From positions 29,070-93,069 of the forward strand of contig JAJZNL010000055.1 of the NCBI GenBank assembly GCA_021852345.1: a DNA stretch of 64,000 bases, given 5' to 3'. The notes below the pieces were generated by a model, which was not told where the DNA came from, ran no database searches, and saw nothing but the letters and a program-made list of their open reading frames with translations. Each line of letters opens with the position of its first letter. The first letter of the stretch is position 1. Of the stretch, positions 4,969 through 64,000 are shown piece after piece. The DNA comes from Actinomycetes bacterium. GTDB taxonomy: Bacteria; Actinomycetota; Acidimicrobiia; Acidimicrobiales; JABEUL01. Both the position numbers and the translations under genes were made by a program.

Positions 4969-5305
4969 ATTGCAACCTCACTTAGTTTATTTAAATTTTT
5001 ATTTAAATTTAAATAACATTAATCGAAACTAAATTTTTTTTAGACTTATGCCTGTCGATAAACCGCCACGGTTAATTCAAAGCATAAGGCATCATAAGTA
5101 CATGCTATTCAAATACGGGTTTAATTTATAGGGGATAAAGTCACTTATTAAAGAGCCGATTCTTATAGCAAATCTACAAAAACAGAAATTTACAAATTAA
5201 AGTTTAGATACCATGTGCCCAATATGACAATTTGTAAAACGTTCTTAACAGCTTCCTTGATCCCTTAATACTACACACATAATTAAAAATCGACCGACCA
5301 GACTA

Positions 5306-5674
5306 TTAACCAGTCGAATCATTATTTGTGACATTTATGGCATTTGTGGCGGATGCTTCAACGCTATTTATGGATAGTCTTTCTTTCAAAGAAGAAGACT
5401 GAGATTTCTTCTCCCACACAGGTTCGGGTTCTTGAATTTCAGGAGTTTTCAACCTAAATATCCAACGAATCACTAGTTTTATGATCTTAGGGTTAAAAGC
5501 CAGTTTTATCATAGAGCCCATGTCTTCTGAACGAATTCTTATTGTAGTTTCCCACGTGACTGGGGCATGAGTAACTCCGCTCAAGACAACTTCTTTTGAT
5601 TCGGTGGTGACTTTAAACTCACCCAAATTTAACTGAAGTTCGCGTTTTCCCAAGCCTCTGGATTTAATTCTCAT
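5306..5674 (-). CDS. Hypothetical protein (orphan, 122 aa)
   Basis: ORF only, with no recognisable motif. Sits in an AT-rich spacer. S/T/N-rich C-terminal tail. Confidence 0.4.
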   Translation of the reverse strand: MRIKSRGLGKRELQLNLGEFKVTTESKEVVLSGVTHAPVTWETTIRIRSEDMGSMIKLAFNPKIIKLVIRWIFRLKTPEIQEPEPVWEKKSQSSSLKERLSINSVEASATNAINVTNNDSTG

Positions 5675-5838
5675 AAGTTAGATTGCCTTTCATTAAATTA
5701 CGATTCGTATATACTTTTTAAACTCAAGTTAAAGTTATTTTTTTTCAGCCGTCAGACACTTTTAATGATTAAGTACTATCTTGCCCGACGCAAATCCCTT
5801 TACCCTATATCAAAGGTACTTATTTCGCCACTTTTAAG

Positions 5839-6234
5839 TCAAGTTGCAAATTTAAAGTGATCCAAATAATACTTACCAACTTGGCCGCCTTCGTCGCTTC
5901 CAAAAATACGTGTTAAGCAAGTATGAACTGACACGTATTCTTTAATCCATAGAATAGCGCTATTGTTGTTTTCGACTTTTCCATTGTTGGCTGCAATTCG
6001 ACGGCTACCAGTGGCATATTGACTTCTTTGAAACAGAGAATCAGCAATACGGGTCTTTAGCTCCTTAAGTTTGACTATCTTGGCTTTTTGAGTTTTTCTT
6101 AGAATCGAAATATTAAATAAATTATCTGTTTTCTCGCTATCGAATTGAGTTGAGAGTCGCAAATTTAACCAATTTTGACTTTGTAAAGCAACTAAATCCA
6201 TGCCCAATGCGACATTAGACTTCATAATATACAT
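5839..6234 (-). CDS. Hypothetical protein (orphan, 131 aa)
   Basis: ORF only, no recognisable family. Alternative start MKSNV at 6225. Palindrome GGGACTaaAGTCCC lies about 30 bp upstream. Confidence 0.4.
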   Translation of the reverse strand: MYIMKSNVALGMDLVALQSQNWLNLRLSTQFDSEKTDNLFNISILRKTQKAKIVKLKELKTRIADSLFQRSQYATGSRRIAANNGKVENNNSAILWIKEYVSVHTCLTRIFGSDEGGQVGKYYLDHFKFAT

Positions 6235-6261
6235 GGTTATTTTAATACCTAAAAATAAATA

Positions 6262-6275
6262 GGGACTAAAGTCCC
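6262..6275. promoter_or_regulatory. Palindrome GGGACT-aa-AGTCCC upstream of orphan ORF 5839-6234
   Basis: Perfect 6 bp arms with a 2 nt spacer read directly. The spacer is too short for an RNA hairpin, so a DNA-binding site is more plausible. Confidence 0.25.
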
Positions 6276-6578
6276 AACTCTCAGGAAAATTACTTTAGAG
6301 CAACAAAATCGGTTACGTATTTAAAACTTACTGGTCATGACTCTCGCAAATCGGCAGTGATATTTATCGTCGGCAAAACAAATAAATTTATACTTAAATT
6401 TAATAGATTTGAATCCATCTCTTTGATGCCCGCCAAAATTTAGACGAGCTGGAATTACCTTTAGGTTGCCTGCATTGAGGTCTATATCGTGTCATCAATT
6501 CTGTTTTACTAACTAAACTAAATACATTAGAGATACAAGTAAGTTTTAAGTCGAATTTGTAATTGCATTAGGTCAAAA

Positions 6579-7868
6579 GTGATTCAAATTCGATATTCGT
6601 CTTTCGCTTGTCAATATCAGCCTAACTCAATTCCAACAATAAATACAGTAGTGACCATCAACAAGCAAACTCAAAATGAACCTGAAACAATAAGCTCAAC
6701 TGGATTGAGCCCAGGAATTATATTTCTGCTGGCATTGGCAACTGGGGTCGCCGTGGCCAATACATACTACGTTCAGCCATTGTTACATGAACTGGTTAAA
6801 ACCTTTAATTCTGGTAACGCCATAACTTCCCTTGCCGTCACCGCAACTCAAATCGGTTATGCCTTTGGGCTGCTGCTTTTAGTTCCTCTGGGAGACATCA
6901 TATCCAGAAAAAAACTTTCAGGAATCATTACCGCCGTTACGGTGATTTCATTAATTTCAAGCGCACTGGCCAAATCAATATTTATGTTCGAGCTAAGTGC
7001 GATAGTTGTAGGGCTTACTTCGGTTATAACACATCTGTTAATACCGTTCGCCGCCGACATGGCCAACCCCGTTAACCGTGGAAAGGTTGTGGCCAGAGTA
7101 ATGTCCGGACTTTTAACCGGCATTCTCGTTTCACGGGGTTTTTCCGGAATTATTGCTCAATTTTTTGGATGGAGAACGGTGTATTTCTTGGCATCGATTT
7201 TTATGGCGATAGTTGGAATTCTTTTGGCTACATTCTTGCCACGCGAACATCGATCTCATAAGCCAAAATACACCGACCTTATCATTTCGACTTGGAAGCT
7301 TTTTTTCAATGAGCCACTACTTCAAAGGCGAGCCTTTATTGGAGCGACTACATTTGCAGGTTTTTCAATACTTTGGACATCAATCACGTTCTTGCTTACT
7401 TCCAAGCCCTACAACTATTCAGTCGGAATCGTCGGAATTTTCTCGCTGGTAGGTTTAGTAGGCATTGCCGCAGCAAATATTGCCGGAAGATTCGTTGACA
7501 AGGGCAAACAAAAAATGTCAACTTGGATCGCCGCTGTTGAACTGTTCGTTGCCTTTCTTATTTTATACTGGGGGACTACTTCGATAATAGCCGTTATAGC
7601 CGGAATAGTAATTTTAGATGCTTCAACGCAGACGATGCAGATTACCAATCAAGGAATTATCTTTTCAATCAGTGAACAATCACGCAGCAGAATTAACTCA
7701 TCGTACATGTTCTGCTATTTTATGGGAGCTTCCGTGGGATCTCTACTGTCAGGATTAACGTATCAAAGATTTGGCTGGCGGGGAATTTGCTCATTGGGTA
7801 TCGTATGTGCTTTACTTACCGCTTTAGGGTCAGCTAAACAGAAGTTACCTCAAGATACTATTCTTTAA
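6579..7868 (+). CDS. MFS transporter (12-TM type)
   Basis: Hydrophobic helices throughout. PLGDIISRKKL matches the MFS loop 2-3 motif. GTG start is uncertain; the true start may be downstream. Confidence 0.8.
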   Translation: MIQIRYSSFACQYQPNSIPTINTVVTINKQTQNEPETISSTGLSPGIIFLLALATGVAVANTYYVQPLLHELVKTFNSGNAITSLAVTATQIGYAFGLLLLVPLGDIISRKKLSGIITAVTVISLISSALAKSIFMFELSAIVVGLTSVITHLLIPFAADMANPVNRGKVVARVMSGLLTGILVSRGFSGIIAQFFGWRTVYFLASIFMAIVGILLATFLPREHRSHKPKYTDLIISTWKLFFNEPLLQRRAFIGATTFAGFSILWTSITFLLTSKPYNYSVGIVGIFSLVGLVGIAAANIAGRFVDKGKQKMSTWIAAVELFVAFLILYWGTTSIIAVIAGIVILDASTQTMQITNQGIIFSISEQSRSRINSSYMFCYFMGASVGSLLSGLTYQRFGWRGICSLGIVCALLTALGSAKQKLPQDTIL

Positions 7869-7885: not shown

Positions 7886-9406
7886 TCAATAAGAGTCGTT
7901 GTCACTACTCAATTTCAATAATAACTCTTGAAGTGATTTTGGTTGACTGCTAAACCAAACGCCAAATCCGATAACTCCGTTTTCTTGTTTTATGTGCCTA
8001 ACCACGGTACCTTCAATGTCCAATACACCCGAATCGATGTCGATTTCAGCGTCAATCACATCACCGCATTCATACCAAAAACTGTCAATTTGTGATATTA
8101 ATGCGCCCGTCGTGGAAAGATCAACCAATTTACCTTTTTTATCATTAATTTTTATTGGCAAATCCACAAAGACTCTGTCGGCGGATCGCCTGTTAATAAT
8201 TTTTAATTTATTATATTTGGGCAATAGGAGCTCGATCTGTCCAGTCGATTCACGGTAGGTGCGATCAAGAATTTGAAATGCCCTGGTTGCGGCCGCATCC
8301 CAAGTAAGTTGTGAGGAATGCCTAAGGGCGCCAACTGATAATTGTTTGGACAACTCCCTATCTGTAGTTACCTGTACTAGACATTCAACAAACTGTTCTA
8401 GCGTGTCAAACAAAAACCCTGTCTCTCCGTCTACGACTGCATCCATGTGACCAGGTATTCTTGAAGCCACACTTAAAGTGCCGCAAGCGCCCGCCTCTGT
8501 TAGAGTCATACCCCAACCTTCTCTCATGGATGCTGAAACTACAGCCCACGCTCTTCTGTAGTAGCTTACAAGTTGGGAATCTGATATTTTACCAGCCAAC
8601 TTGCACCACGAAGAAGCATCGAGCTCATCAATAAGTTTATAAAGATCCGGTTTTGCGGCTCCCTCGCCAGCTATAACTAATTGCGCATTAGGTACTCGCT
8701 TACGCAGTTGATTAACCGCATTTATAACCCAATCATATCTTTTAACTTCAACAAGTCTTCCGACGGCAAAAATCAAAGGGTACTCAGACTTTTGACCCTG
8801 CGGGCGGAACCGTGAATTAACACCTGGGTGAACCACGTTGACATGATAATCCGGCCAACCCAGCAGATCAATGACTTCATCTGCCGAACTAGTTGACGGT
8901 GTGATTACCCTGGTATTTCTATAAAATTTGGGTGCAACTTTTTTCTCAAAATATGCCCCAACGTCGGCAAGCCCTATGGGTAGTACAGAACGCCAAAGTG
9001 CCTTTTCGTGTACATGGTGCAATATGACAACTCTCGGCCCCTTTGACCAGATCGGCGACAAGAATGGCATGCCGTTCCAAATCTCAACCAAAACATCGGC
9101 TTCAGGCATTCTTCCAATTAATCCGTCGATAACTGTTTGCCCAAAAACGCTGTATTTACTGGATTTACGAATAATCTTGTATCCGTCTCTCATCCCAACG
9201 GAATCATTATTGTCGGTGCTGGCGGTTCTCATAGTAACTTCCAGACCGGCCTCAGCCCACCTTTTTGCTATTTCATGTGCGTGAATTTCAGAGCCGCCGG
9301 CGGTAACATCTTCTAAGTCACGCCAAGCTACGATCGTAATTTTTCTTATACTCGACTGCTCTACCAGGTCTTTCAAAGACACCGGTTCAAACTTTTCCTT
9401 GGTCAA
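7886..9406 (-). CDS. GT4-family glycosyltransferase fused to a C-terminal PilZ (c-di-GMP-binding) domain
   Basis: GT-B/GT4 features: GGSEIHAHEIAKRW and the EX7E motif REGWGMTLTE (E296-E304). The last ~100 aa carry RRSADR (residues 406-411, nt 8174-8191) and DLSTTG (residues 429-434), i.e. canonical RxxxR and DxSxxG. TTG start. Confidence 0.8.
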   Translation of the reverse strand: MTKEKFEPVSLKDLVEQSSIRKITIVAWRDLEDVTAGGSEIHAHEIAKRWAEAGLEVTMRTASTDNNDSVGMRDGYKIIRKSSKYSVFGQTVIDGLIGRMPEADVLVEIWNGMPFLSPIWSKGPRVVILHHVHEKALWRSVLPIGLADVGAYFEKKVAPKFYRNTRVITPSTSSADEVIDLLGWPDYHVNVVHPGVNSRFRPQGQKSEYPLIFAVGRLVEVKRYDWVINAVNQLRKRVPNAQLVIAGEGAAKPDLYKLIDELDASSWCKLAGKISDSQLVSYYRRAWAVVSASMREGWGMTLTEAGACGTLSVASRIPGHMDAVVDGETGFLFDTLEQFVECLVQVTTDRELSKQLSVGALRHSSQLTWDAAATRAFQILDRTYRESTGQIELLLPKYNKLKIINRRSADRVFVDLPIKINDKKGKLVDLSTTGALISQIDSFWYECGDVIDAEIDIDSGVLDIEGTVVRHIKQENGVIGFGVWFSSQPKSLQELLLKLSSDNDSY

Positions 9407-9586: not shown

Positions 9587-10552
9587 TCAAAAATCGATTT
9601 GTCGTAAAATTTTAAGCGCGAGGCCGTCCAAAATATCGCTTTCTAAAACATGACAACTTTTAATGCCAAACTTTTGCAACGCCACCAGAAGTATTAACGC
9701 CCCGGCAACTATTACTTCAGCCCTTCCCACTTCGAGTCCCGAAAGTTCACGGCGCTTACTAAGTGGCAATTCGGCTAAGTATTGGAGCGTGGCTTCGATT
9801 TGATCCAAGGTCAACTCCTTTAAATGGACACCTTGTTTACTGTACTCCTTTATGCCATTGGCAACCATATACAAACTGATAGCGGTACCAGCTACGGCAT
9901 AAACTCTTTCGATTTGTAAATTTTGATATCTAGAGCAAACTACGGTGAACAAATTTGATACGTATTTAAACGCTTTTTCTAAGTCGTTTCTATCGACAGG
10001 ATCAGACTTAAAAAATCTTTCGGTAAGTCTTACACATCCAATATCAATTGAGCCACCGAGTGCATTTGAAACAAATTTGCCGGCTTCATAATTCGAATTT
10101 AAATAGTCAAGTTGAAGACCACTTATAACCTCTGTCGAACCGCCACCGATATCTATAACAACAACTCGCTCTTTAGTTGATTCCAAACCCGACATTGCCC
10201 CTTTAAAACTTAATACCGCTTCTTTGTATCCGCTTAATAGCATCGGCGTTACTCCAAATAGATCGCGAACGGCTTTAATAAAGTATTGAGAATTCTTTGA
10301 ATCCCTAACCGCAGATGTTGCAATCAGCCCCCATTCAGTCACGTTAAAACTTTGACCTATTTCAAAATAATCCTTTAAAACCTTTAAGGTTCGGCTGACC
10401 GCATCTTCATCTAAATTTTTTTCTTTGTCTACGTTTTGGCCCAATCTGGTGACCCTGGAATCTCTATAAATTTGATTTTTGTCATCGTCAATTATAAGCA
10501 GTCGAGTCGAGTTTGTTCCACAATCGATGGCCCCGATAATCTTATTCATCAT
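9587..10552 (-). CDS. ppx: Exopolyphosphatase, Ppx/GppA family
   Basis: AIDCGTNSTRLLI and VIDIGGGSTEV ASKHA phosphate-binding motifs. 4 nt overlap with the DUF501 gene. Confidence 0.9.
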   Translation of the reverse strand: MMNKIIGAIDCGTNSTRLLIIDDDKNQIYRDSRVTRLGQNVDKEKNLDEDAVSRTLKVLKDYFEIGQSFNVTEWGLIATSAVRDSKNSQYFIKAVRDLFGVTPMLLSGYKEAVLSFKGAMSGLESTKERVVVIDIGGGSTEVISGLQLDYLNSNYEAGKFVSNALGGSIDIGCVRLTERFFKSDPVDRNDLEKAFKYVSNLFTVVCSRYQNLQIERVYAVAGTAISLYMVANGIKEYSKQGVHLKELTLDQIEATLQYLAELPLSKRRELSGLEVGRAEVIVAGALILLVALQKFGIKSCHVLESDILDGLALKILRQIDF

Positions 10553-11046
10553 AGTTCGCTTTCGTATTCATCGATATTTAACTTACACGTACCAGCCACC
10601 CAACTCCCCACAGCATCCTGTCTTGTTGCCAGAAAATTGGCTAAATGGGCATGTAGACATTTTAGTCCCCGCCCAGTTCCCCCAACACCGCCTTGAGGCA
10701 TTAATCCCGCATAATTTTTGGGAAGAAGTTCATGTCTCATTGCCGAATATCTTTTATGAATTTCATCGATTTCGGTTTCGTTAAACAGCCGTTCCACAAA
10801 CTTCAAACCAAATTCAGCTTCAATTCTGGACACTAACTTTGACTCTTTTTTACCCAACAACCAAAAAAGTGTCGGCATCGGAACCCCGCTATTTAAAATA
10901 GGGTAGTTTGCAATTACAACAATACCTTTTGTGGTTCTATTTCTAACTGTGACTTTAAAGGGTCCCGAAGGCGGGCGTTTCAAAAGTTTTTCTACTTCCA
11001 AAAAATCGGATTCGTCAAAACCGAAATCATCGATTGACTTAATCAA
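10549..11046 (-). CDS. DUF501 domain protein
   Basis: 165 aa with the GTGRGLKCLHAHLA motif. Sits directly upstream of ppx, as in actinobacterial eno-ftsB-DUF501-ppx loci. TTG start. Confidence 0.75.
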   Translation of the reverse strand: MIKSIDDFGFDESDFLEVEKLLKRPPSGPFKVTVRNRTTKGIVVIANYPILNSGVPMPTLFWLLGKKESKLVSRIEAEFGLKFVERLFNETEIDEIHKRYSAMRHELLPKNYAGLMPQGGVGGTGRGLKCLHAHLANFLATRQDAVGSWVAGTCKLNIDEYESEL

Positions 11047-11048: not shown

Positions 11049-13022
11049 TTAGGGACTCTTTGTCTTTAGTATCCGTCTAATGATCAGAAGTAGAATAACG
11101 CCAACTGAAGGTATAATTATTGGCTTAAGACGACTTTTTAATGGAGATGAGACCAAGTCCAATATATCAATTGGTTCATTCGGTTGACTTTCAATCTTTA
11201 GCTCATCGACACTTGATGCGCTATGAGTCTCTAAATCTCTACCATTCGCTTCTTCGCCGGTTTTAACGGATTCAGTCGAATTAACCGAAGTCTGTGGCAT
11301 TTCTATAATAGATGCCAAATTCTGTAAACCGCTCTCTCCGTTTTCCTCCTTAGAATCTTCGGTAGTTACGAAGGCTTCAGGCGAATTTAGCTGTTCGTTC
11401 GCATTTGATGATTTAAAAATCGGAATTACCTCCCCGTTGGATCCTTGGAGACTCCCGTCAGTTAGAAGATCGCCTTGAGGAATCTGCAATTCAACTATAT
11501 TTTCTTCGGGAACATTTTCTGGGTTTTCATCAATTGGCAAATCCGATTCGAAAAAATCAACTTTATCATCGGCTCTATCGCCGGAATCGACAGAAGACAT
11601 TCCGGGTTCAGAATCTTGAATATCTTCTTGATCATACAACGTTATGTCTTCATCATCGGCCAATAAGGCTTCTACCGCATTAATATCATCTAACTCTTCG
11701 ACTTCGGTGTCTATCTCTTCTGCAGTAAAGTTACCAATGGCAATTTCTCCCAAACTCCCTTCGCCTTCATCCAATTCTGTTTCGATGCTATTTGAAAGTT
11801 TTGACAACTTTTCGTCTGCAGGAGAGCCCTCAATGTCAACCCGATCCGCATTAGAGCCCTGAGTCCTTGAATTGACTTCGTCAATTTCATCGTCCAAATC
11901 TATTTCAGTGGCCAATTTGGAAAGCTTATCAGCAACAATAGGATTTACAATTCCCAAAGCCGATTCATCACTTGTTGCTTCAGAGTTTTGTTTGTATTCT
12001 TGATCTTCAGCCACATCTTCATCTGATTTTATTTCATCGTTCGATTCAGACGGAACCGACGATATCAAATTATTATCGTCATCGTCATTATCTGCTGTTA
12101 CTTTTCCGATTCTGCTTTGCTCCAGATTCGCATTTTGAGATGCCGCTTGACGGGCTTCGTCAATGTCTCTTCTAATGTCTTCAAGTCGTTCTTTTAATGA
12201 ATCAGTCAATTCTAGATTTTGGTCTGGATTATCATCAGAAGTACCCGTCGCCATCGGCAAATTATCATCAGCTAATTCAATCTCCTCAGACGAAAAATTA
12301 AGCCCCAACAATAAATCTCCAGAAGGGTCAGAATTATCCTCTACGACGATTCCATCTTGCCCCTCGATATTTTCAATAGGTAAGCCTTTTTCTTCTTCGT
12401 GGCTTAACTCCAGATTAGGTTCTTCGACTTTACCTTCAACGGCATCAGAATCAATATCAAAAATTTTGTTTTGAATATTTGCTTCCTGTTCGTTTGCTCC
12501 CTCGTTCAGATGATCAGATCCCAACTCAGCGGTTCCTTCAGACCCGTTCATTACGGATTCAATCGGTTGGCCATTCAAGAGATTAGATAAGTTAGAGGCA
12601 AAAATATCTAAAATCTTACCTGAAACATCATCCAAAAGACCACGTCCCAGTTGGGCAACCTTACCTGAAATGGAAAGGTTGGTCGTAACCGTCACCCTGG
12701 TAATGGAATTATCATCAACTATTATCGGTTTCAAGGTTGCATGCACAACAGCTGCAGCTGATCCGGTACCCTTAGATTCTTTGCCGTCAGCTTTTAATAT
12801 AGCAGTATATGTTTTATGGTTTCTGTCCACCCATGTCGCAACGCCCGCATAAGAGGTAACGATTGGACCTACCTTAACTTTAATCGTTCCTTCGTATTCT
12901 CCATTTTTAACACGATCCAACTCCGCTCCGGGAAGACACGGAGCAATGAGCTTCAAGTCGGTTAACACTTCCCATGCTTTTTCTATGGGAACTGGCACCT
13001 TAAATTCGTTAATTAGCTCCAT
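11049..13022 (-). CDS. coxG: CoxG-like SRPBCC protein with a long acidic disordered region and a C-terminal TM anchor
   Basis: Residues 1-150 (nt ~12573-13022) match CoxG/SRPBCC (MELINEFKVPVPIEKAWEVLTDL...ISGKVAQLGRGLLDDVSGKIL). Residues ~150-625 are D/E/S/N-rich low complexity. The C-terminus PIIIPSVGVILLLIIRRILKTKSP is a hydrophobic helix followed by a basic tail. Confidence 0.8.
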   Translation of the reverse strand: MELINEFKVPVPIEKAWEVLTDLKLIAPCLPGAELDRVKNGEYEGTIKVKVGPIVTSYAGVATWVDRNHKTYTAILKADGKESKGTGSAAAVVHATLKPIIVDDNSITRVTVTTNLSISGKVAQLGRGLLDDVSGKILDIFASNLSNLLNGQPIESVMNGSEGTAELGSDHLNEGANEQEANIQNKIFDIDSDAVEGKVEEPNLELSHEEEKGLPIENIEGQDGIVVEDNSDPSGDLLLGLNFSSEEIELADDNLPMATGTSDDNPDQNLELTDSLKERLEDIRRDIDEARQAASQNANLEQSRIGKVTADNDDDDNNLISSVPSESNDEIKSDEDVAEDQEYKQNSEATSDESALGIVNPIVADKLSKLATEIDLDDEIDEVNSRTQGSNADRVDIEGSPADEKLSKLSNSIETELDEGEGSLGEIAIGNFTAEEIDTEVEELDDINAVEALLADDEDITLYDQEDIQDSEPGMSSVDSGDRADDKVDFFESDLPIDENPENVPEENIVELQIPQGDLLTDGSLQGSNGEVIPIFKSSNANEQLNSPEAFVTTEDSKEENGESGLQNLASIIEMPQTSVNSTESVKTGEEANGRDLETHSASSVDELKIESQPNEPIDILDLVSSPLKSRLKPIIIPSVGVILLLIIRRILKTKSP

Positions 13023-13597
13023 TTACTTAAATCTTCTTTCGTATCAATATCCACCGGGCTTCCAGAACCCTTGACTAATGTAACCATATTCGGAAAATCT
13101 GCCATTAGCTGTTTTGCGCCGATATCGCCGGCAGTGGGCAGCTTAAAAAACATCTCCTTTTTAATTTTAATCGGATGACCCACCTTTTGTCCATAGGTAG
13201 TTGCAACGAGAGAAGTACTTTCTTCGTCCAGCACTGCGTTAAATGAATCAATTGTCAGAAAAGGCATATCTGCTAAAGCTACCACGACAGACGAATGGCC
13301 GCTGTTTAAGGCGTAGTGGATCCCTACGTTTAACGATGAAGCCAGTCCCAATTCAGCAGAGTGATTAATTAGAACCGTGAATTCATCGCCGATCAGAGGT
13401 GTCAAGGTATCGTCCTTTAGTATTACAATCCTTTCGTCGCATTGTGTTTCAGAGACCACGTCAAGTATCCATTTGATAAGAGGCTTCCCCTTAAAGTTGG
13501 CCTGAAGCTTATTGGTATTAGGTTTGCCGGCGGCAAAACGCTCAGATTTACCGGCTGCCAGAATTAAAATTGCATTTGACACAGTTAAATAATACAC
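13013..13597 (-). CDS. MobA/MocA-like nucleotidyltransferase (molybdenum cofactor cytidylyl/guanylyl-transferase)
   Basis: ILILAAGKSERF N-terminal NTP-transferase motif and ~190 aa length. GTG start. 10 nt overlap with the coxG-like gene. Confidence 0.75.
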   Translation of the reverse strand: MYYLTVSNAILILAAGKSERFAAGKPNTNKLQANFKGKPLIKWILDVVSETQCDERIVILKDDTLTPLIGDEFTVLINHSAELGLASSLNVGIHYALNSGHSSVVVALADMPFLTIDSFNAVLDEESTSLVATTYGQKVGHPIKIKKEMFFKLPTAGDIGAKQLMADFPNMVTLVKGSGSPVDIDTKEDLSKWS

Positions 13598-13939
13598 GGA
13601 ATTAAAGCACGCCCCTTACCCAAATTATATTAGTAACTTCCCAACAGTTAAATGCGCCTGTATGCCCTAGCTTTCAAACACTGGTTCGGATAGATACAAA
13701 CTCTAAATTATCGCCATATTACAGAGAGCGGCTCTATTGTCTTGTAGTTTTGAAGTTGCTAATTAATCCGCTCGTGAGTAGAAAATGATTTCGACCATTT
13801 TAAATTAAATCGGTCGGAAATTTTATACCAAATTACATCAACCCTACTTTCAGGTGCAAATAACCAATTTGAAACGAAATTCCAAACAATATTTCGGCTA
13901 TCGAAACCGGTATCGAATTATCGACAAGCAAGAAAACTA

Positions 13940-15169
13940 TTAGCGAGCTGTTATAGTTCCAAATGTCGCATTGAGCGGATTACCTGACCTGGAATTTTTT
14001 ACTGCAACGATCTGAGCGATAATCGCAAGAGCAATTTCATTTGAATTGGTAGCTCCTAGATCCAAACCGATCGGAGAAAAAATACGACTCAGCTTTTCTT
14101 GGTCAATACCAAGATCTTTTAACTTTTGGAATCTTTTCTCGGCTGTCACTCTGGATCCGATCGCCCCTACGTAGCCGAAAGGCAAGTCGACTGCAAGTTT
14201 TAATGCTGGTATATCAAATTTCTCATCGTGGCTTAACATGCACAATGAGTCTTTTTCGGAAACGGTATCACGAATTTCAGAGATATAGTCTTCTGGCCAT
14301 TTCAATTCCAGTTCTATCTCTTTGTTAAATCTAGATTCATTTAAAAACATAGGGCGCGGATCAACTACGACGACCCTATAACCCATTTTTAATCCGATCT
14401 CAGATAGAGCAACAGCATGATCTGAAACACCGGCGATAATTAATCTATGAGTTCCTATATAACGATAAAAAAACATGTTGTATTCATTTGCCACGGTTAG
14501 ATCAAAATAGCCGTCACTTTTATTGCCGCCTACTTCGGAATTCATATCATGCCTTAAGAATGTGATGTCATCACTGTCAGATGAGTCTACTGCGACATGG
14601 AAGAATCCCGAAGAAATATTATTGTCACGATAGCCTACAAGAACTGACTTGAACAAATCGTCAACTCCCCCAGCCTGATTTCTAATCCGACCATGGCAGA
14701 CGACAAATTTGGTTTCGCTGCCAATTTCAGATAGTCCATAGATAGAGCCCGTGCTTACATCAATTGCAATATAGGATCGTGAAGCTTTTAGACTATCTTT
14801 TAGAAGGGGCAAAAAATCGTTCCAGTCGGGCATGAAAGCCGTTATATTTGCCGAGCCTCCGCAAGTCAACCCAAAATTAAATGCCTCTTCGTCGGTATAG
14901 GGAAATGTCCCTATATAAGGAGTCCCACTGTTATTGTTCGAAACTTGATCTATTCTTCTTAAAACTTCACCTATAACAGCAGGTTCAACGCATCCACCCG
15001 AAACGGAGCCCAAACTTTCCGAATCTGAATTTACAACCATTATGGATCCAAGCGGCATCGGCGAAGATCCACTAGCCGACACCAATACAGCCATCCCCAC
15101 CTGTTTTGACTCTTGTATCCATTTTTCAACCGTCTGAATCAGTCTATTTGAAACGAAATCTGGATTCAT
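13940..15169 (-). CDS. XdhC/CoxI-family molybdoenzyme maturation protein
   Basis: N-terminal XdhC_CoxI pattern (SSPMPLGSIMVV...LGSVSGGCVE) and a C-terminal Rossmann-like segment (LIIAGVSDHAVALSEIGLKMGYRVVVVDPRP). Confidence 0.8.
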   Translation of the reverse strand: MNPDFVSNRLIQTVEKWIQESKQVGMAVLVSASGSSPMPLGSIMVVNSDSESLGSVSGGCVEPAVIGEVLRRIDQVSNNNSGTPYIGTFPYTDEEAFNFGLTCGGSANITAFMPDWNDFLPLLKDSLKASRSYIAIDVSTGSIYGLSEIGSETKFVVCHGRIRNQAGGVDDLFKSVLVGYRDNNISSGFFHVAVDSSDSDDITFLRHDMNSEVGGNKSDGYFDLTVANEYNMFFYRYIGTHRLIIAGVSDHAVALSEIGLKMGYRVVVVDPRPMFLNESRFNKEIELELKWPEDYISEIRDTVSEKDSLCMLSHDEKFDIPALKLAVDLPFGYVGAIGSRVTAEKRFQKLKDLGIDQEKLSRIFSPIGLDLGATNSNEIALAIIAQIVAVKNSRSGNPLNATFGTITAR

Positions 15170-15213
15170 ATTTAAAACTTCTGTCTAGTTTCTTATAAAT
15201 TTCATAACAGCCA

Positions 15214-16026
15214 TCAAAAGGAATATTTTTCGGCATATTGTTTCATGAAAACCTTCAACAGATGGAGTCTGTAGTTTTTTGTACCATATATGTCCTCCGT
15301 GGGTGAACATTTTGAAGCAACCGCTTGATAGACAGATTCAAAATCTGAATGAAGTTCTTGAATATCAATTCCAACGGACACGGTTGTGGCTGCCATACTG
15401 ATCAAACCCATGCTCAAAGTATCTACAAACCTAGCTACCGCCATTCCCGAGATTGCCCAGTCTTGAGCTCTTTTGGATATCTTAAAGAACTCGGTATCGC
15501 CAGCAGTCAAAGGGAATCTTATAGATGCTAATATTTCATCTTCACCCAAAGCAGTTTCCAAAAATCCATGATAAAATTCACTCGATGAAATTTCCCTAAT
15601 TCCATTTTTGCTTATAACAACGGCGGTGCCTCGTAAGGCCACAAAACACCCCGCTAGATCAGAAGCCGGATCCCCGTGAGATATTGCCCCTCCGATTGTA
15701 CCGCGATGTCGTATTTGAGGATCACCTATCTGATTTGCTACATTTGCCAAAAGTGGTACGTTAGTGACTATCTCATCATACTTACCCAAGTCACAGTGAC
15801 GAACCATCGAACCAATCTCTATAGAGTCATTGACAATTCTTACTACTTTAAATGCACGAATATCTGATATGTCGACCAATTGGTCGAAACTGGTCAAACC
15901 CATTTTCATTAAAGGTATCAATGACTGACCGCCAGCGATTATCTTTGTATCGAACTTCTGCGACATTGCCTCCGTCAAGTCCTCTACGGTTTTAGGTTTT
16001 ATGTATTTGTATTCGTTTAAAATCAT
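15214..16026 (-). CDS. coxM: FAD-binding medium subunit of a xanthine dehydrogenase/CO dehydrogenase-family enzyme
   Basis: IIAGGQSLIPLMK FAD-binding motif, 270 aa. Confidence 0.85.
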   Translation of the reverse strand: MILNEYKYIKPKTVEDLTEAMSQKFDTKIIAGGQSLIPLMKMGLTSFDQLVDISDIRAFKVVRIVNDSIEIGSMVRHCDLGKYDEIVTNVPLLANVANQIGDPQIRHRGTIGGAISHGDPASDLAGCFVALRGTAVVISKNGIREISSSEFYHGFLETALGEDEILASIRFPLTAGDTEFFKISKRAQDWAISGMAVARFVDTLSMGLISMAATTVSVGIDIQELHSDFESVYQAVASKCSPTEDIYGTKNYRLHLLKVFMKQYAEKYSF

Positions 16027-16044
16027 CTAACGGCGCTTGTAAAG

Positions 16045-16533
16045 TTAATCGTCTTTTTGAGCTATCATCATATCTTGGGCCAATTCAACTGCGGCAACAA
16101 TATTGTGATAACCGGTGCATCTGCACAGGTTCCCCTCTAGACCCTGTCGAATCTCATCTTCTGATAGCGTTCGACCCGTAGTATTGTTTGCCAACATCGA
16201 AACAGTCGCCATGATCATCCCAGAGGTACAAAATCCGCACTGCAATCCATGAGTTTGTCCAAATGCCTTTACGACTGGATGAAGTTGCCCTCCCACAGGG
16301 TTCAATCCTTCCATGGTCGTTACATCTTTTTGATCGGCCTGGACGGTCAATACCGTACAAGCCTTTACAGATTCACCGTCCAGCAATACGGTGCAGGCAC
16401 CGCAAGTGGTGGTGTCACAGCCAACGTTGGCAGCCTTTAAACCCGCTATATCCCTAATGAAATCCACCAGTAGCATGCTGGTATCGACTTCGGCATCATA
16501 TTTTTTTTGATTGACAATAATTGAAACTTTCAT
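16045..16533 (-). CDS. coxS: [2Fe-2S] small subunit of a xanthine dehydrogenase/CO dehydrogenase-family enzyme
   Basis: GCDTTTCGACTV and CGFCTSGM cysteine clusters. 4 nt overlap with the large subunit. Confidence 0.9.
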   Translation of the reverse strand: MKVSIIVNQKKYDAEVDTSMLLVDFIRDIAGLKAANVGCDTTTCGACTVLLDGESVKACTVLTVQADQKDVTTMEGLNPVGGQLHPVVKAFGQTHGLQCGFCTSGMIMATVSMLANNTTGRTLSEDEIRQGLEGNLCRCTGYHNIVAAVELAQDMMIAQKDD

Positions 16534-18845
16534 ATCGTATCAACTTCGAGCAAAAAAGGATTTTCGCCTTCATATAAAGCTTTATATATATTAACGGGAG
16601 TTATCGGAATGTTAACATTTAAATCGCCGAACTCTTCTAAGGCGTCGGCCACAGCATTTGCCACGGCTGGTATTATTCCTATCGTTCCAGACTCACCAAT
16701 TCCTTTGGCGCCCAATTCGTTTATTAAAGTGGGAGTTTCCATTAAATTAACGTCAAAATTTGGAAATTCAGTTGCCGAAGGAAAGCCGTAGTCATACAGA
16801 GTAGAAGTCATCAGATTACCGTCTTTATCATATACGACTTCTTCAAAAAGAGCCTCTGCGGCGCCCTGGGCAACTCCTCCGTGCAACTGCCCCATCGCCA
16901 AAACTGGATTTACAATTTTACCGGCATCATCTACGGTTACCACTTTTAATAGCTTAACTTGACAAGTCTTTAAATTAACGCTCACCATTGCCAAATGAGA
17001 TCCAAACGGAAAGGTCGGTCCGTTTGACTTATACTCCGATTCGGCTTTAAGAATTATTCCCGCTTGATCTGCCGACTTAGCAATATCTGCATAACCGTAT
17101 ATCCTGTCGTCGCATTTAAAATTTCCGTCCGATTTTATAAATTCAATTCGTTCAAAAGGAACATTGATATATTGACTTAAAAACTTTTTAATTATCTCCA
17201 CAAGTTGCAAACAAGCACCATTTATCGCAACTCCCGCACTCTGAATCGATCGCGACCCAAACGTACCCACACCAAAAGGAATTAATTTCGTATCACCTTG
17301 CACCATTTCAATTTGATCCAAATCAAATCCGGTTACCTCTTTGGCAATCTGGGAATATGCCGTTTGATGACCCTGTCCATGTGAAAATGTTCCGCACCCA
17401 ATCTCTAAAATCCCGTCTTTTCGCAACTCCGCAGAGCCGTATTCGGTAGCTGGAACTCCGTGAGTTATTTCCACGTAAGAGCTAATTCCGATTCCGATTC
17501 TCGAATCATCCGAAAGCTTGTTGACTTCGTCTTTTTTCACCTTGAGCATCTCTAAGTCACCGATCTGGCAAAGATTGACTAAAGCTTTTTGATAATCTCC
17601 AGAATCATAAACCGCACCGTATTTAGTTTGATATGGAAACTGTTCGGGTTTAATAAAGTTATTGCTCCTAAGTTGGACTTTATCTATGCTAACTTTTCTG
17701 GCATATTTGTCAACAATTCTCTCAATGGCATAGGCCGCCTCAGGTCGCCCCGCCCCTCGATAGGCGACAACGGGATTCGTATTGGTTACAACAGACTTGG
17801 ACTGATATACGACATTTTCTATATCGTAAGTTCCAGAGGTCATAAAGCGAGTGAATATCGGTAAAAAAGCTCCGGTAAGCGGATATGCTCCACAGTCTTG
17901 CAACACATCTAAAAAGTAGTGGGTAAATCTGCCGCTTTTATCTCCCCCAAGTTTTACGCGTTGAACTTGACCTCTGCCGTGCCCTAAGGACATCATGGAC
18001 TCTGATCTGGTTTCAACCCACTTAAGCGTAATGTTACATTTTTTAGCAAAATATGCAACCAAAATCTCCTCGGGGTAAAGCGATATTTTTGCCCCAAAGC
18101 CGCCCCCCACATCGCCTGCAATGACATGCACTTGCTCTTTGTCGACCTTAAGCGCCCGACTTATTGAGTCTTTAGCCCCGTGCGGCGCCTGGGTTGAAAC
18201 ATAAATTTCAAGTCCAGCGTCAATCGGTTTAACCAAAATTGCTCGCCCTTCAAGCGGGCAAGGGGCGACCTTAGGTATTAAGTAAGTTTCTTCTACGACT
18301 ACCTCACAGCCGTCAAAAAACTTCTCTTCGTTAAAATCTTCTTCGGTATTCTTAGAAGCGACATTGCTTTGTGAACCCTCAAAAAGCAAATAGTCGGTAT
18401 GCAAAGCTTCAATCGGGTCTACTACGGCTTTCAGTTTGTCAATTTCAACTTCGATAAATTCGGCAGCTTTTTCCGCTTCGGATTTTGACTTTGCCACGAT
18501 CATGGCCATCGGCTCGCCAACATAGCGGAGCCTACGGGATGGCAACAGTTCTCGAACCATTGCCTGGTCTACTATTTTTGCCGGAATTATTGGATCTAAA
18601 TCCACATCGGCTGAAGTGAATATTTCAATGACGCCGGTCATTTTTTTTGCAGTCGATACGTCGATGGATTTTATAATTCCGCTTGCAACGTATGATCTTA
18701 AAAAATGAACGTGGTATGTATCTTCGAATTCCAAATCGGCAACATAAGTACCGCCCTTTGTTAATAATCTTTTATCTTCCTGTCGGACAAATGAGCTAAA
18801 ATCCGCAGCTGGAATATCCAGCCTCGAAGATACTTCGACTGTCAT
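16530..18845 (-). CDS. coxL: Molybdopterin-binding large subunit, form-II CoxL-like (AYRGAGR)
   Basis: About 770 aa aldehyde oxidase/xanthine dehydrogenase fold. Active-site loop reads VVAYRGAGRPEAAY. The ATG at 18845-18843 overlaps the ftsB-like TGA as ATGA; the track start at 18851 is an in-frame TTG two codons upstream. Confidence 0.85.
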   Translation of the reverse strand: MTVEVSSRLDIPAADFSSFVRQEDKRLLTKGGTYVADLEFEDTYHVHFLRSYVASGIIKSIDVSTAKKMTGVIEIFTSADVDLDPIIPAKIVDQAMVRELLPSRRLRYVGEPMAMIVAKSKSEAEKAAEFIEVEIDKLKAVVDPIEALHTDYLLFEGSQSNVASKNTEEDFNEEKFFDGCEVVVEETYLIPKVAPCPLEGRAILVKPIDAGLEIYVSTQAPHGAKDSISRALKVDKEQVHVIAGDVGGGFGAKISLYPEEILVAYFAKKCNITLKWVETRSESMMSLGHGRGQVQRVKLGGDKSGRFTHYFLDVLQDCGAYPLTGAFLPIFTRFMTSGTYDIENVVYQSKSVVTNTNPVVAYRGAGRPEAAYAIERIVDKYARKVSIDKVQLRSNNFIKPEQFPYQTKYGAVYDSGDYQKALVNLCQIGDLEMLKVKKDEVNKLSDDSRIGIGISSYVEITHGVPATEYGSAELRKDGILEIGCGTFSHGQGHQTAYSQIAKEVTGFDLDQIEMVQGDTKLIPFGVGTFGSRSIQSAGVAINGACLQLVEIIKKFLSQYINVPFERIEFIKSDGNFKCDDRIYGYADIAKSADQAGIILKAESEYKSNGPTFPFGSHLAMVSVNLKTCQVKLLKVVTVDDAGKIVNPVLAMGQLHGGVAQGAAEALFEEVVYDKDGNLMTSTLYDYGFPSATEFPNFDVNLMETPTLINELGAKGIGESGTIGIIPAVANAVADALEEFGDLNVNIPITPVNIYKALYEGENPFLLEVDTI

Positions 18846-19315
18846 TTCCAAAATTCAAGTCTGGATAAAAGCCTTGAGAAGAAGTTTTGGTTGGCATTAG
18901 TTTTCGAAGAACTTGCAACAGATCCGTTGGGACCCAAATGCGTCGGAATAGGCGGAACGGGATTTTGATTGGCATTATTGGGCAAAACCACATAGGGCTG
19001 TTCCCCTTGCTTAACCAAACCATATCTCTGTCTGGCGAGTTTTTCAATGTAAGACGGTGTATTTAGCTGCTGGATTTGCTTATTCAACTGTTGGTTGGAA
19101 GCCTGCAACTGCAATTGGGTGGTCTGAAGCGCTGCCAATGACCTGTTTTCATTGTAGAGCCTGTTGAAAGGAAATTCAAGCCCAAAGAATACGACAATGC
19201 ATAAAAATATAAACAAAAAGACCGGTCGCCTTTTGGTGCGTAGCTTTTTTGTTCGCTTCTTCTTGTGCGATATTCTCTTGCTATTTGCGTTTGTTTTTGT
19301 CGATGCGGTAGTCAT
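18842..19315 (-). CDS. ftsB: Septum formation initiator, FtsB/DivIC family
   Basis: Basic N-terminus, a single TM (VFLFIFLCIVVFFGL), a coiled-coil Q/L-rich segment, then IEKLARQRYGLVKQGE. Directly downstream of eno. Confidence 0.8.
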   Translation of the reverse strand: MTTASTKTNANSKRISHKKKRTKKLRTKRRPVFLFIFLCIVVFFGLEFPFNRLYNENRSLAALQTTQLQLQASNQQLNKQIQQLNTPSYIEKLARQRYGLVKQGEQPYVVLPNNANQNPVPPIPTHLGPNGSVASSSKTNANQNFFSRLLSRLEFWK

Positions 19316-19323
19316 GGATAAAC

Positions 19324-20601
<1,278 letters not shown>

Positions 20602-63830: not shown

Positions 63831-64000
63831 TTACGTCCTCATCGGGAAATGCGGTACCAAATGACTAGGAATATCCTTATAATGCGGATTATTCATATCC
63901 CGATTTGAAACAATCGGATCTTGTATTCCCCAATCTATATTAAGTTCTGGGTCATTAAATGCAACTCCATTTTCATCATTTTGGTTATAGTAACCGTCGA
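63831..64000 (-). CDS. rmlC: dTDP-4-dehydrorhamnose 3,5-epimerase, C-terminal fragment (5' end beyond the window)
   Basis: Manual translation gives ...DGYYNQNDENGVAFNDPELNIDWGIQDPIVSNRDMNNPHYKDI...*, with TAA at 63833-63831. It matches the RmlC C-terminal pattern (NDPxLxIxW...S.KD). Confidence 0.65.
   Translation of the reverse strand, partial: DGYYNQNDENGVAFNDPELNIDWGIQDPIVSNRDMNNPHYKDIPSHLVPHFPMRT

What the first reader, a model, noticed from the sequence alone, without database searches (positions are those of the whole stretch)
7886..9406. GT4 glycosyltransferase fused to a canonical PilZ domain in an actinobacterial-type genome
- **Catalytic part:** the first ~390 aa are a GT-B/GT4 retaining glycosyltransferase with an intact EX7E motif (REGWGMTLTE).
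- **PilZ part:** the last ~100 aa (nt ~7913-8209) carry both c-di-GMP-contacting PilZ motifs in the correct order and spacing, RRSADR (nt 8174-8191) and DLSTTG 17 residues later.
- **Why unusual:** the known PilZ-gated sugar polymerases are GT2 enzymes (BcsA) or separate PilZ subunits (Alg44). I know of no characterised GT4-PilZ fusion, and PilZ receptors are, as far as I know, considered rare or absent in well-studied Actinomycetota.
- **Context:** the gene is monocistronic, convergent with an MFS transporter, and next to an AT-rich islet.
- **Implication:** it could be a c-di-GMP-gated glycolipid or exopolysaccharide glycosylation switch.
Basis: partly seen in the sequence, partly recalled or inferred. 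Interest (0 to 1): 0.75.

Follow-up and report, generated by a model that had tools for sequence, protein, structure and literature searches.

The report
Sugar-transferring enzyme with built-in c-di-GMP sensor
This gene from an uncultured Acidimicrobiales bacterium fuses an ordinary cell-envelope glycosyltransferase (family GT4) to a PilZ domain, the classic sensor of the bacterial signal c-di-GMP; the combination is real, rare, anciently conserved and apparently unstudied, but whether the sensor actually switches the enzyme is still untested.

Summary
ORF 7886-9406 (-) encodes 506 aa. It has a GT-B/GT4 domain with an intact EX7E motif (E296...E304) and a C-terminal PilZ domain (Pfam 31.6 bits against a 22.5 cut-off; 95 bits against an independent broad PilZ profile). 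RRSADR and DLSTTG lie at the stated nucleotides. The predicted fold is a GT-B followed by a beta-barrel whose top 43 PDB matches are all PilZ proteins.

The genome is an Acidimicrobiales MAG. The GT4 part belongs to a large orthogroup (more than 560 genomes) that normally lacks PilZ and sits beside an AftD-like GT-C and a Wzx-like protein, which marks it as envelope-glycan assembly. The fusion occurs in about 22 sequences (eight distinct proteins compared here) that form one clade (200/200 bootstraps). Its PilZ part has diverged to 24% identity, yet R407, R411, S431 and G434 remain invariant. The clade moved to a new locus and keeps a convergent MFS gene in five of six lineages.

The most likely function is c-di-GMP-dependent control of a cytoplasmic glycosylation step. 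This is inferred, not shown. No GGDEF, EAL or HD-GYP gene lies in 83 kb of the contig, and a genome-wide census was not possible. "Monocistronic" is unsupported. It is a new variant of a known kind and moderately interesting.

The parts
7886..9406 (-). Complete GT4-PilZ fusion gene (506 aa)
   Evidence: ORF. The identical protein P0001 is found on 15 public contigs. Full-length AF2 model: pLDDT 83, pTM 0.72.
8243..9347 (-). GT-B / GT4 catalytic region (about residues 21-388), including the EX7E motif E296-E304 (nt 8495-8521)
   Evidence: Pfam Glyco_transf_4 and Glycos_transf_1. Foldseek matches to MshA, BshA, GlgM, PimA and PimB'. 107 of 369 columns are invariant across nine fusion sequences from eight distinct proteins. 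The GGSE loop, HHxH, GRLVxxKR and EX7E are invariant across fused and unfused homologues.
8174..8242 (-). Interdomain linker (about residues 389-411) ending in the RxxxR motif (R407...R411; RRSADR = nt 8174-8191)
   Evidence: Low pLDDT for residues 397-409, as expected for the flexible ligand-wrapping arm of an apo PilZ. R407 and R411 are invariant in all nine fusion sequences.
7904..8173 (-). PilZ beta-barrel plus C-terminal helix (residues 412-501), with [D/N]hSxxG = DLSTTG at nt 8105-8122
   Evidence: Six strands (412-485) plus helix 490-501. The top 43 PDB matches of the PilZ-only model are all PilZ proteins, many solved with c-di-GMP (MotI, Alg44, BcsA, PA0012, YcgR, MapZ; TMq up to 0.72). 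S431 and G434 are invariant and D/N429 is conserved.
6579..7868 (+). Convergent MFS transporter gene; its orthologue accompanies GT4-PilZ in five of six fusion lineages
   Evidence: Pfam MFS_1, 130.8 bits. Orthologues at 44-55% identity sit next to the fusion gene in L082/L083, L085, L099 and L171, and none is found in over 100 unfused loci. The functional link is inferred from synteny only.
9587..11046 (-). Upstream same-strand genes DUF501 (10549-11046) and Ppx/GppA (9587-10552); conserved upstream neighbours and possibly co-transcribed
   Evidence: DUF501-Ppx lies directly before the fusion gene in the window/L081, L085, L086 and L099; other genes lie between in L082/L083 (one peptidase gene) and L171 (two large genes). 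No functional link has been shown.

Best explanation
The gene encodes a cytoplasmic, retaining GT4 glycosyltransferase of an actinobacterial envelope-glycan pathway that acquired a canonical c-di-GMP-binding PilZ domain at its C-terminus, once, in an ancestor of a small clade of low-GC Acidimicrobiales.

Proposed mechanism (inferred): c-di-GMP is clamped between the RxxxR arm of the interdomain linker (R407/R411) and the DLSTTG face of the beta-barrel. The linker leaves the last helix of the GT-B fold, which by general GT-B topology packs back onto the N-terminal Rossmann domain next to the hinge. Ligand-induced ordering of the linker would therefore reposition the barrel against the catalytic cleft or hinge and change the enzyme's ability to close on donor and acceptor. 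This is allosteric gating, analogous in logic to BcsA.

The product is probably a lipid-linked sugar intermediate (a glycolipid or polyprenyl-linked glycan) that is then moved across the membrane; the conserved convergent MFS protein is a candidate for that step.

Shown here: the architecture, the fold, the motif conservation, the single origin and the conserved contexts. Inferred: ligand binding, the direction of regulation (activation or inhibition), the substrate and the role of the MFS protein.
For: The architecture and motifs pass curated thresholds and an independent PilZ profile (95 bits). The fold matches GT4 enzymes and PilZ proteins, many solved with c-di-GMP; the RxxxR linker is disordered in the model.

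The fusion is monophyletic on the GT4 domain alone (200/200 bootstraps), so it is old. The PilZ part has diverged to 24-28% identity, yet R407, R411, S431 and G434 are four of only nine invariant columns out of 101 (P about 3e-5). Galperin and Chou note that PilZ domains in fusion proteins retain c-di-GMP binding, whereas stand-alone ones can lose the motifs (10.1101/814665).

The catalytic signatures are intact. Unfused orthologues lie beside an AftD-type GT-C (243.7 bits; 77 of 110 loci) and a Wzx-like Polysacc_synt protein (54 of 110), with PMT_2 and GT87 GT-Cs in some loci. That places the orthogroup in envelope-glycan assembly.

In nine unfused loci an orthologous GGDEF-EAL gene lies downstream on the same strand, five of them within about 300-800 nt. 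This is an independent hint that the pathway is tied to c-di-GMP in the order.

The MFS orthologue is convergent in five of six fusion lineages. A block of GT2, a ~157-aa protein, a ~370-406-aa protein and MFS is shared by L082 and L171, which sit on the two main branches of the clade.
Against: There is no experimental evidence of any kind. No GGDEF, EAL or HD-GYP gene is present in the window or in 83 kb of the parent contig, nor in about 93 kb of loci from other fusion lineages. GGDEF counts in Actinobacteria can be zero (PMC10746217).

The Pfam PilZ score is modest (31.6 bits). The relative orientation of the two domains could not be examined, because no coordinates or PAE were available. 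The GT4 has no close characterised relative: the best NCBIfam equivalog scores 97 bits against a cut-off of 462, and identity to solved structures is 16-20%. Donor and acceptor are therefore unknown.

The GGDEF-EAL neighbour occurs in only about 12% of unfused loci with enough downstream sequence, and this may reflect inherited gene order within one subclade. MFS synteny may likewise be inherited rather than functional, and the GT2 block is absent from this window.
Confidence: 0.55

Rival explanations
1. The PilZ domain binds c-di-GMP but works as a recruitment or assembly module rather than an allosteric gate. Ligand binding would drive dimerisation, or docking of the soluble GT4 onto a membrane partner (the MFS protein or other envelope-glycan machinery), much as PelF must be recruited to PelDEG.
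For: GT4 enzymes of this type are peripheral or soluble, and some need membrane recruitment: PelF is inactive in isolation (PMC8461298). The PilZ C-terminal helix, present here at residues 490-501, is a known protein-protein interface in MapZ, Alg44 and BcsA (10.1101/814665). A membrane protein gene (MFS) is conserved next to the fusion gene in five of six lineages.
Against: No interaction data exist. Covalent fusion directly after the GT-B crossover helix is more simply explained by control within the molecule. The MFS gene is missing from one lineage's locus (L086).
Confidence: 0.2
2. The PilZ domain no longer signals with c-di-GMP. The lineage may lack diguanylate cyclases, and the barrel would persist as a structural or interaction domain, or would bind a different ligand.
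For: No c-di-GMP turnover gene was found in any fusion-clade DNA examined, about 175 kb in total. Some actinobacterial genomes have no GGDEF protein (PMC10746217). The organism has low GC (42%) and the region looks like compact housekeeping DNA, which would be compatible with a reduced signalling repertoire. Non-binding PilZ-like domains are known, including the eponymous PilZ protein (10.1101/814665).
Against: Non-binding PilZ domains characteristically lose RxxxR and [D/N]hSxxG. Here both are retained across sequences only 24-28% identical in this domain. About 175 kb is too small a sample to conclude absence. GGDEF-EAL genes are present in related Acidimicrobiales, even beside the unfused orthologue.
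Confidence: 0.15
3. The fusion is an artefact: a frameshift, misassembly or gene-calling error has joined a GT4 gene to a separate small PilZ gene.
For: The source is a metagenome-assembled genome, and most members of the orthogroup lack the domain.
Against: The same continuous ORF is found in eight distinct proteins at 41-78% identity from independent assemblies (NCBI, ENA, JGI, Logan), with linkers of similar length and no stop codon or frame change. The identical protein is seen on 15 contigs.
Confidence: 0.01

Closest known systems
BcsA-type cellulose synthases (GT2 with a C-terminal PilZ; PDB 4P00)
   Same: A glycosyltransferase covalently fused to a C-terminal canonical PilZ domain, with RxxxR in the preceding linker. 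The BcsA PilZ is among the top structural matches of this domain. The regulatory logic, a second messenger acting post-translationally on sugar transfer, is probably the same.
   Different: BcsA is a GT-A-fold, inverting, processive, integral-membrane GT2 synthase-translocase, and its PilZ controls a gating loop over the active site (PMC8461298). The protein here is a GT-B-fold, retaining, apparently soluble or peripheral GT4 with no detected transmembrane region and no gating-loop equivalent. Any coupling must use a different structural route. The PilZ sequences are not specifically related: after the fusion clade itself the profile score drops from 107 to 68 bits.
Pel system (PelF GT4 enzyme controlled through the c-di-GMP receptor PelD)
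   Same: This is the one well-studied case in which a GT4 enzyme's output depends post-translationally on c-di-GMP (PMC8461298).
   Different: In Pel the receptor is a separate membrane protein that binds c-di-GMP at a degenerate GGDEF I-site, and no Pel protein has a PilZ domain. Here the receptor is fused to the enzyme and is a PilZ. No PelD, PelE or PelG-like genes are nearby.
Alg44 (PilZ-containing co-polymerase of the alginate synthase Alg8)
   Same: A canonical PilZ domain controls polysaccharide synthesis, and its fold is a top match (4RT0).
   Different: Alg44 is a separate subunit (PilZ, a transmembrane helix and an HlyD-like domain) acting on a GT2 enzyme. It is not fused to a catalytic domain.
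Unfused GT4 orthologues of Acidimicrobiales, Aquihabitans and Frankia (uncharacterised 'glycosyltransferase family 4 protein')
   Same: About 50% identity over the whole catalytic region, with the same invariant motifs. This is the family the catalytic part belongs to.
   Different: They lack PilZ (390-450 aa). They lie in a different locus, beside an AftD-like GT-C and a Wzx-like protein, and in some genomes a GGDEF-EAL gene. None has been characterised experimentally as far as I could find.
Structurally characterised GT4 enzymes: MshA, BshA, PimA/PimB', GlgM
   Same: GT-B fold, EX7E motif and retaining GT4 signatures.
   Different: Only 16-20% identity, and every NCBIfam equivalog falls far below its cut-off (for example MshA, 97 bits against 462.5). 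Substrate specificity cannot be transferred, and none of these enzymes carries a PilZ domain.

Membership tests
PilZ domain (Pfam PF07238), canonical c-di-GMP-binding type | Significant match to the family HMM above the curated threshold | tested here: met
   31.6 bits against a gathering score of 22.5, E=2.2e-7, profile positions 1-97 of 102. 95.4 bits against a profile built from 244 unrelated PilZ domains.
PilZ domain (Pfam PF07238), canonical c-di-GMP-binding type | RxxxR motif in the N-terminal arm and [D/N]hSxxG on the barrel, in that order, about 20-30 residues apart | tested here: met
   R407-SAD-R411 and D429-L-S431-TT-G434, with 17 residues between the motifs. Conserved in all nine fusion sequences (eight distinct proteins).
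PilZ domain (Pfam PF07238), canonical c-di-GMP-binding type | Six-stranded beta-barrel followed by a C-terminal alpha-helix | tested here: met
   AF2 models show six strands plus helix 490-501, with barrel pLDDT of about 80-90. The top 43 Foldseek PDB hits are all PilZ proteins, and the 15 best have E<=1e-3. This is a prediction, not an experimental structure.
PilZ domain (Pfam PF07238), canonical c-di-GMP-binding type | Binds c-di-GMP | not testable with these tools
   Needs DRaCALA, ITC or MST on purified protein with an R407A/R411A control.
Glycosyltransferase family 4 (GT-B fold, retaining) | Matches to the Glyco_transf_4 (N-terminal) and Glycos_transf_1 (C-terminal) HMMs above threshold | tested here: met
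   41.1 bits (cut-off 28.5) and 117.4 bits (cut-off 26.4).
Glycosyltransferase family 4 (GT-B fold, retaining) | Two Rossmann-like domains (GT-B) and the EX7E motif in the C-terminal domain | tested here: met
   The AF2 model matches MshA, BshA, GlgM and PimA with TM (target-normalised) 0.73-0.77. E296 and E304 are invariant.
Glycosyltransferase family 4 (GT-B fold, retaining) | Catalytic activity with a defined donor and acceptor | not testable with these tools
   No equivalog-level match. Requires enzymology.
c-di-GMP-regulated exopolysaccharide synthases of the BcsA type | GT2 (GT-A fold) processive synthase with transmembrane helices forming a translocation channel | tested here: not met
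   No GT2 or Cellulose_synt Pfam hit in this protein. The fold is GT-B. It works on the same principle but is not a member.
Pel system (PelF) | GT4 enzyme encoded with PelD, PelE and PelG (and PelA, PelB, PelC) partners | tested here: not met
   None of these partners is among the annotated neighbours across 83 kb. PelF-specific sequence similarity was not tested directly.
A functional c-di-GMP signalling module in this organism | At least one GGDEF diguanylate cyclase in the genome | tested here: inconclusive
   None in the 64-kb window (motif scan; tblastn with an Acidimicrobiales GGDEF-EAL protein) or in the Pfam labels for 83 kb of contig DAHZJI010000039.1. The rest of the MAG could not be reached.

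The most novel reading that the evidence does not exclude
This would be the first example of a PilZ domain allosterically controlling a GT-B-fold (GT4) glycosyltransferase. That would be a structurally new coupling mechanism, in which c-di-GMP regulates hinge closure of a two-Rossmann enzyme. It would operate in Acidimicrobiia, a class with no studied c-di-GMP effector, and would gate the committed cytoplasmic step of an envelope glycolipid or lipoglycan whose export uses the co-conserved MFS protein. The recurrent GGDEF-EAL gene beside the unfused orthologue would then mean that the whole orthogroup's pathway is under c-di-GMP control across the order, with the fusion clade having hard-wired the receptor into the enzyme.
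Probability: 0.3. Interest if true: 0.7.

Novelty: new variant of a known kind. Interest (0 to 1): 0.5.

Why it matters
Direct post-translational control of sugar polymer synthesis by c-di-GMP is a central theme of biofilm biology. The structurally understood case is BcsA, a GT2 enzyme. How c-di-GMP acts on a GT4 enzyme (PelF, through PelD) is still unresolved.

A natural single-chain GT4-PilZ protein would offer a small, probably soluble system for seeing how a PilZ domain can regulate a GT-B enzyme. It would also extend c-di-GMP effector biology to Acidimicrobiia, where nothing is known, and it links an uncharacterised but very widespread actinobacterial GT4/AftD-like envelope-glycan locus to second-messenger signalling.

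The practical reach is limited. The fusion is confined to about 22 sequences from uncultured organisms, and PilZ is already known to fuse promiscuously to many output domains. The finding extends a known principle rather than overturning one.

Tried and rejected
1. A word-index homologue search with the PilZ region alone returned nothing, not even the parent protein. This was a limitation of the tool with a short query and cost one search. The exhaustive HMMER profile search replaced it.
2. The AFDB Foldseek search for the same two-domain architecture was unavailable. I therefore could not check UniProt/AFDB for independent GT4-PilZ fusions.
3. Ten PilZ hits whose length and C-terminal PilZ position suggested possible GT fusions turned out to be REC-, MCP-, kinase-, DUF4388- or GT2-PilZ proteins, or PilZ-only. 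None was GT4.
4. Assignment to a specific GT4 enzyme (MshA, EpsE, monoglucosyl-DAG synthase, PimA/B, GlgM) was rejected. All scores are far below the equivalog cut-offs, and identity to solved structures is 16-20%.
5. A defence-system reading, prompted by the weak PF20706 'GT4-conflict' hit (25.1 bits, below the cut-off of 26), was rejected. The hit reflects general similarity among GT4 families, and the neighbours are housekeeping genes.
7. The promoter and terminator scan around the gene was uninformative.
8. NCBIfam gave no specific names for the MFS protein, the two-domain GT2 or the small conserved unknowns.
10. Model coordinates are not exposed, so interdomain contacts could not be measured.
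Full report

Yes. The ORF at 7886..9406 (-) encodes 506 aa, and exactly this protein is called on 15 public contigs. Pfam finds three domains above their curated cut-offs:
- Glyco_transf_4, residues 37-197, 41 bits.
- Glycos_transf_1, residues 201-357, 117 bits.
- PilZ, residues 405-497, 31.6 bits against a gathering score of 22.5, E=2.2e-7.

The EX7E pair (E296, E304 in REGWGMTLTE) is invariant in fused and unfused homologues.

A full-length AlphaFold2 model (pLDDT 83, pTM 0.72) shows:
- a GT-B fold;
- a last long helix (369-388);
- a disordered linker (397-409) that carries RxxxR;
- a six-stranded barrel (412-485);
- a C-terminal helix (490-501).

The full model matches retaining GT4 enzymes (MshA, BshA, GlgM, PimA, PimB'). 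A separate model of the last 115 residues returns only PilZ proteins as its top 43 PDB hits, many solved with c-di-GMP (MotI, Alg44, BcsA, PA0012, YcgR, MapZ; TMq up to 0.72). A PilZ profile that I built from 244 domains of unrelated PilZ proteins scores the gene at 95 bits and finds no other PilZ in the six-frame window.

**2. What organism and what family?**

Near-identical contigs are labelled Acidimicrobiales bacterium (MAGs). The window averages 42% GC.

The catalytic part belongs to a large orthogroup. More than 560 genome loci and hundreds of metagenome loci encode proteins about 50% identical over residues 10-380, in Acidimicrobiales, Aquihabitans and Frankia/Parafrankia. Nearly all are 390-450 aa and lack PilZ. 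No NCBIfam equivalog comes near its cut-off (the best is MshA, 97 bits against 462.5), and identity to solved structures is 16-20%. Donor and acceptor are therefore unknown.

Gene context helps. I analysed 110 loci. Conserved neighbours of the unfused orthologue:
- a ~1270-aa AftD-type GT-C (PF11847, 243.7 bits) in 77 loci;
- a ~530-aa Wzx-like Polysacc_synt protein in 54 loci;
- in smaller numbers, PMT_2 and GT87 GT-Cs, an FAD oxidoreductase and a methyltransferase.

This is the signature of an envelope glycan or lipoglycan pathway, in which a cytoplasmic GT-B enzyme builds a lipid-linked intermediate that is flipped across the membrane and extended outside by GT-C enzymes. That reading rests on established knowledge of such pathways.

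**3. How rare and how old is the fusion?**

Only seven of the 120 best database hits carry PilZ. One further locus came from metagenomes (L099) and one from cluster members (P0278/L171). Together the seven 90%-identity clusters hold about 22 sequences, all labelled simply 'glycosyltransferase'.

An exhaustive HMMER search of 1.84 billion representatives with the family's PilZ profile found only the three 50%-identity clusters of this family above 100 bits. Those three were part of the query profile. Scores then drop to 68 bits for generic PilZ proteins. Ten hits with plausible lengths were checked and none is a GT4 fusion.

On the GT4 domain alone the eight fusion proteins form one clade in 200 of 200 neighbour-joining bootstraps. 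This indicates a single fusion event that has been kept while the proteins diverged to 41-47% identity.

Within the clade the PilZ part evolves faster than the GT4 part (24-71% against 46-81% identity to the window protein). Even so, R407, R411, S431 and G434 are four of only nine invariant columns out of 101, and position 429 is always D or N. Given nine invariant columns, the chance that those four named positions are all among them is about 3e-5. This figure is rough, because the sequences are related and the motifs help to anchor the alignment. Retention of both ligand-contacting motifs is what distinguishes binding from non-binding PilZ domains (10.1101/814665).

**4. Context of the fusion clade**

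The fused gene has left the AftD/Wzx locus. In every lineage it lies downstream of the conserved actinobacterial block eno-divIC-...-DUF501-ppx. Other genes are inserted between ppx and the fusion gene in two of the lineages.

An orthologous MFS gene (44-55% identity) converges on it in five of six lineages and is never found in the unfused loci. In L082 and L171, which sit on the two main branches of the clade, that MFS gene is the last gene of a block: a two-domain GT2, a ~157-aa protein, a ~370-406-aa protein, then MFS. The GT2 and the 157-aa protein are 44% and about 37% identical between the two loci. In L085, L099 and L171 a lipoprotein-like ~245-aa gene follows the fusion gene.

In the present window the GT2 block and the lipoprotein are absent. 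An AT-rich stretch with two orphan ORFs occupies the position upstream of the MFS gene.

The claim of a monocistronic gene is not supported either way. The gene is on the same strand as DUF501-ppx with a 180-nt gap, and the consensus scan is uninformative.

**5. Is c-di-GMP available?**

This is the weak point. I found no GGDEF, EAL or HD-GYP gene in any of the following:
- the window, by motif scan and by tblastn with an Acidimicrobiales GGDEF-EAL protein;
- the Pfam labels of 83 kb of the 97.5-kb parent contig;
- about 93 kb from other fusion lineages.

That sample is far too small to decide the matter, and the rest of the MAG could not be reached. GGDEF counts in Actinobacteria range from 0 to 80 per genome (PMC10746217).

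One piece of independent evidence supports a link. In nine unfused loci (Aquihabitans, Microthrixaceae and other Acidimicrobiales) an orthologous GGDEF-EAL gene (GGDEF 138-162 bits, EAL 231-255 bits) lies downstream of the GT4 gene on the same strand. Five of these are within about 300-800 nt and four are about 4.5 kb away. This is a minority, 9 of 76 loci with enough downstream sequence, and it may partly reflect inherited gene order. It spans GGDEF-EAL proteins only 53% identical, however. No separate PilZ gene occurs in those loci.

**6. Most likely mechanism**

I favour c-di-GMP-dependent allosteric control of a cytoplasmic GT4 step in envelope-glycan synthesis (confidence about 0.55). The RxxxR arm starts about 18 residues after the last GT-B helix. 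In the general GT-B topology that helix packs back against the N-terminal domain near the hinge. Clamping c-di-GMP between the arm and the barrel should order the linker and reposition the barrel relative to the cleft or hinge. This would affect the open-to-closed transition that GT-B enzymes need for catalysis.

Whether the ligand activates or inhibits cannot be said. By analogy with BcsA, Alg44 and Pel, activation is the default expectation (PMC8461298).

Rivals:
- ligand-dependent recruitment or oligomerisation rather than gating (0.2);
- an orphan PilZ in a lineage without c-di-GMP, or one that binds another ligand (0.15);
- an assembly artefact (about 0.01, excluded by eight independent lineages).

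**7. Comparison with known systems**

- The protein works on the same principle as BcsA but is not a member of that family. BcsA is a GT-A-fold, membrane-embedded GT2 with a gating loop; this protein is a GT-B GT4 with no GT2 signature.
- Pel is the closest biological precedent for c-di-GMP control of a GT4 enzyme. There the receptor (PelD) is a separate GAF/degenerate-GGDEF protein and no PilZ is involved (PMC8461298), and no Pel partners are encoded here.
- Alg44 is a separate PilZ subunit.

In the searchable literature I found no description of a GT4-PilZ or GT-B-PilZ protein. Surveys of PilZ architectures mention glycosyltransferase fusions only as BcsA-like (10.1101/2020.02.11.943704).

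Two caveats apply. I could not query InterPro or AFDB architectures, so independent GT4-PilZ fusions elsewhere are not excluded.

**8. Verdict**

The gene is a new variant of a known kind: a PilZ-regulated glycosyltransferase on a different catalytic fold, in an unstudied class, with a single ancient origin and strong conservation of the ligand-binding residues.

Interest is moderate (0.5). It would be an attractive minimal system for asking how PilZ can regulate a GT-B enzyme. Against that, PilZ fusions are notoriously diverse, the clade is tiny and uncultured, and the key prerequisite, a diguanylate cyclase in these genomes, remains unverified.

Noticed in passing
L010:11459-13444(+), L016:11513-13585(+), L079:11497-14067(+), L095:7417-9313(+), L159:10619-12334(+); also L004, L065, L089, L090: An orthologous GGDEF-EAL gene lies downstream of the unfused GT4 orthologue on the same strand in nine Acidimicrobiales loci, including two Aquihabitans genomes. 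Five are within about 300-800 nt. This suggests the GT4/AftD-like glycan locus may be tied to c-di-GMP even where no PilZ is fused, and no receptor is evident in those loci.
   Followed up: partly
L002-L166 (for example L030:11906-15715(-) and L146:8150-9742(+)): The unfused GT4 orthologue has a strongly conserved neighbourhood: an AftD-type GT-C with carbohydrate-binding modules (77 of 110 loci), a Wzx-like Polysacc_synt protein (54 of 110), and sometimes PMT_2 and GT87 GT-Cs, an FAD oxidoreductase and a methyltransferase, with coaE and uvrB further on. As far as I could find, this is an uncharacterised envelope-glycan locus, widespread in Acidimicrobiales and Frankia.
   Followed up: partly
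window 5001-6500 (ORFs 5306-5674(-) and 5839-6234(-)): An AT-rich stretch (33-37% GC against 42%) holds two small ORFs with no Pfam hit. It occupies the position, upstream of the MFS gene, where the L082 and L171 lineages carry the block of GT2, a ~157-aa protein and a ~370-406-aa protein. This suggests that the block was replaced or lost in this lineage.
   Followed up: partly
window 11049-13022(-): The COXG/SRPBCC protein of the Mo-hydroxylase cluster is 657 aa here but 229-260 aa in relatives (L082, L086). The extra ~480 residues are an extremely acidic, D/E/S/N-rich low-complexity region that ends in a hydrophobic C-terminal segment.
   Followed up: no
L085:5881-6627(+), L099:11530-12267(+), L171:11601-12326(+): A ~245-aa protein with a signal peptide and a lipobox-like Cys (for example LASCSAS, VAGCSSK) and no Pfam or NCBIfam match follows GT4-PilZ in three fusion lineages at 26-28% identity. 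It is absent from the window.
   Followed up: partly
L171:3854-9825(-): Two very large secreted-looking proteins (987 and 1002 aa) are inserted between ppx and GT4-PilZ in the P0006 lineage. The 1002-aa protein is built of Ser/Cys-rich repeats. No confident Pfam match.
   Followed up: no
window 13013-20598(-): A CoxL/S/M-like molybdenum hydroxylase cluster, with XdhC, a MobA-like NTP_transf_3 and COXG, is inserted between divIC and DUF501. This splits the eno-divIC-DUF501-ppx block that is otherwise contiguous in Actinobacteria. The insertion is present in the P0001, P0004 and P0005 lineages but not in L085, L099 or L171.
   Followed up: no
L170:9407-9958(+), just beyond window position 64000: A dTDP-4-dehydrorhamnose 3,5-epimerase (RmlC-like, PF00908) gene sits next to a RodZ_C protein about 55 kb from the fusion gene. 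It is the only other sugar-nucleotide gene seen on the contig.
   Followed up: no
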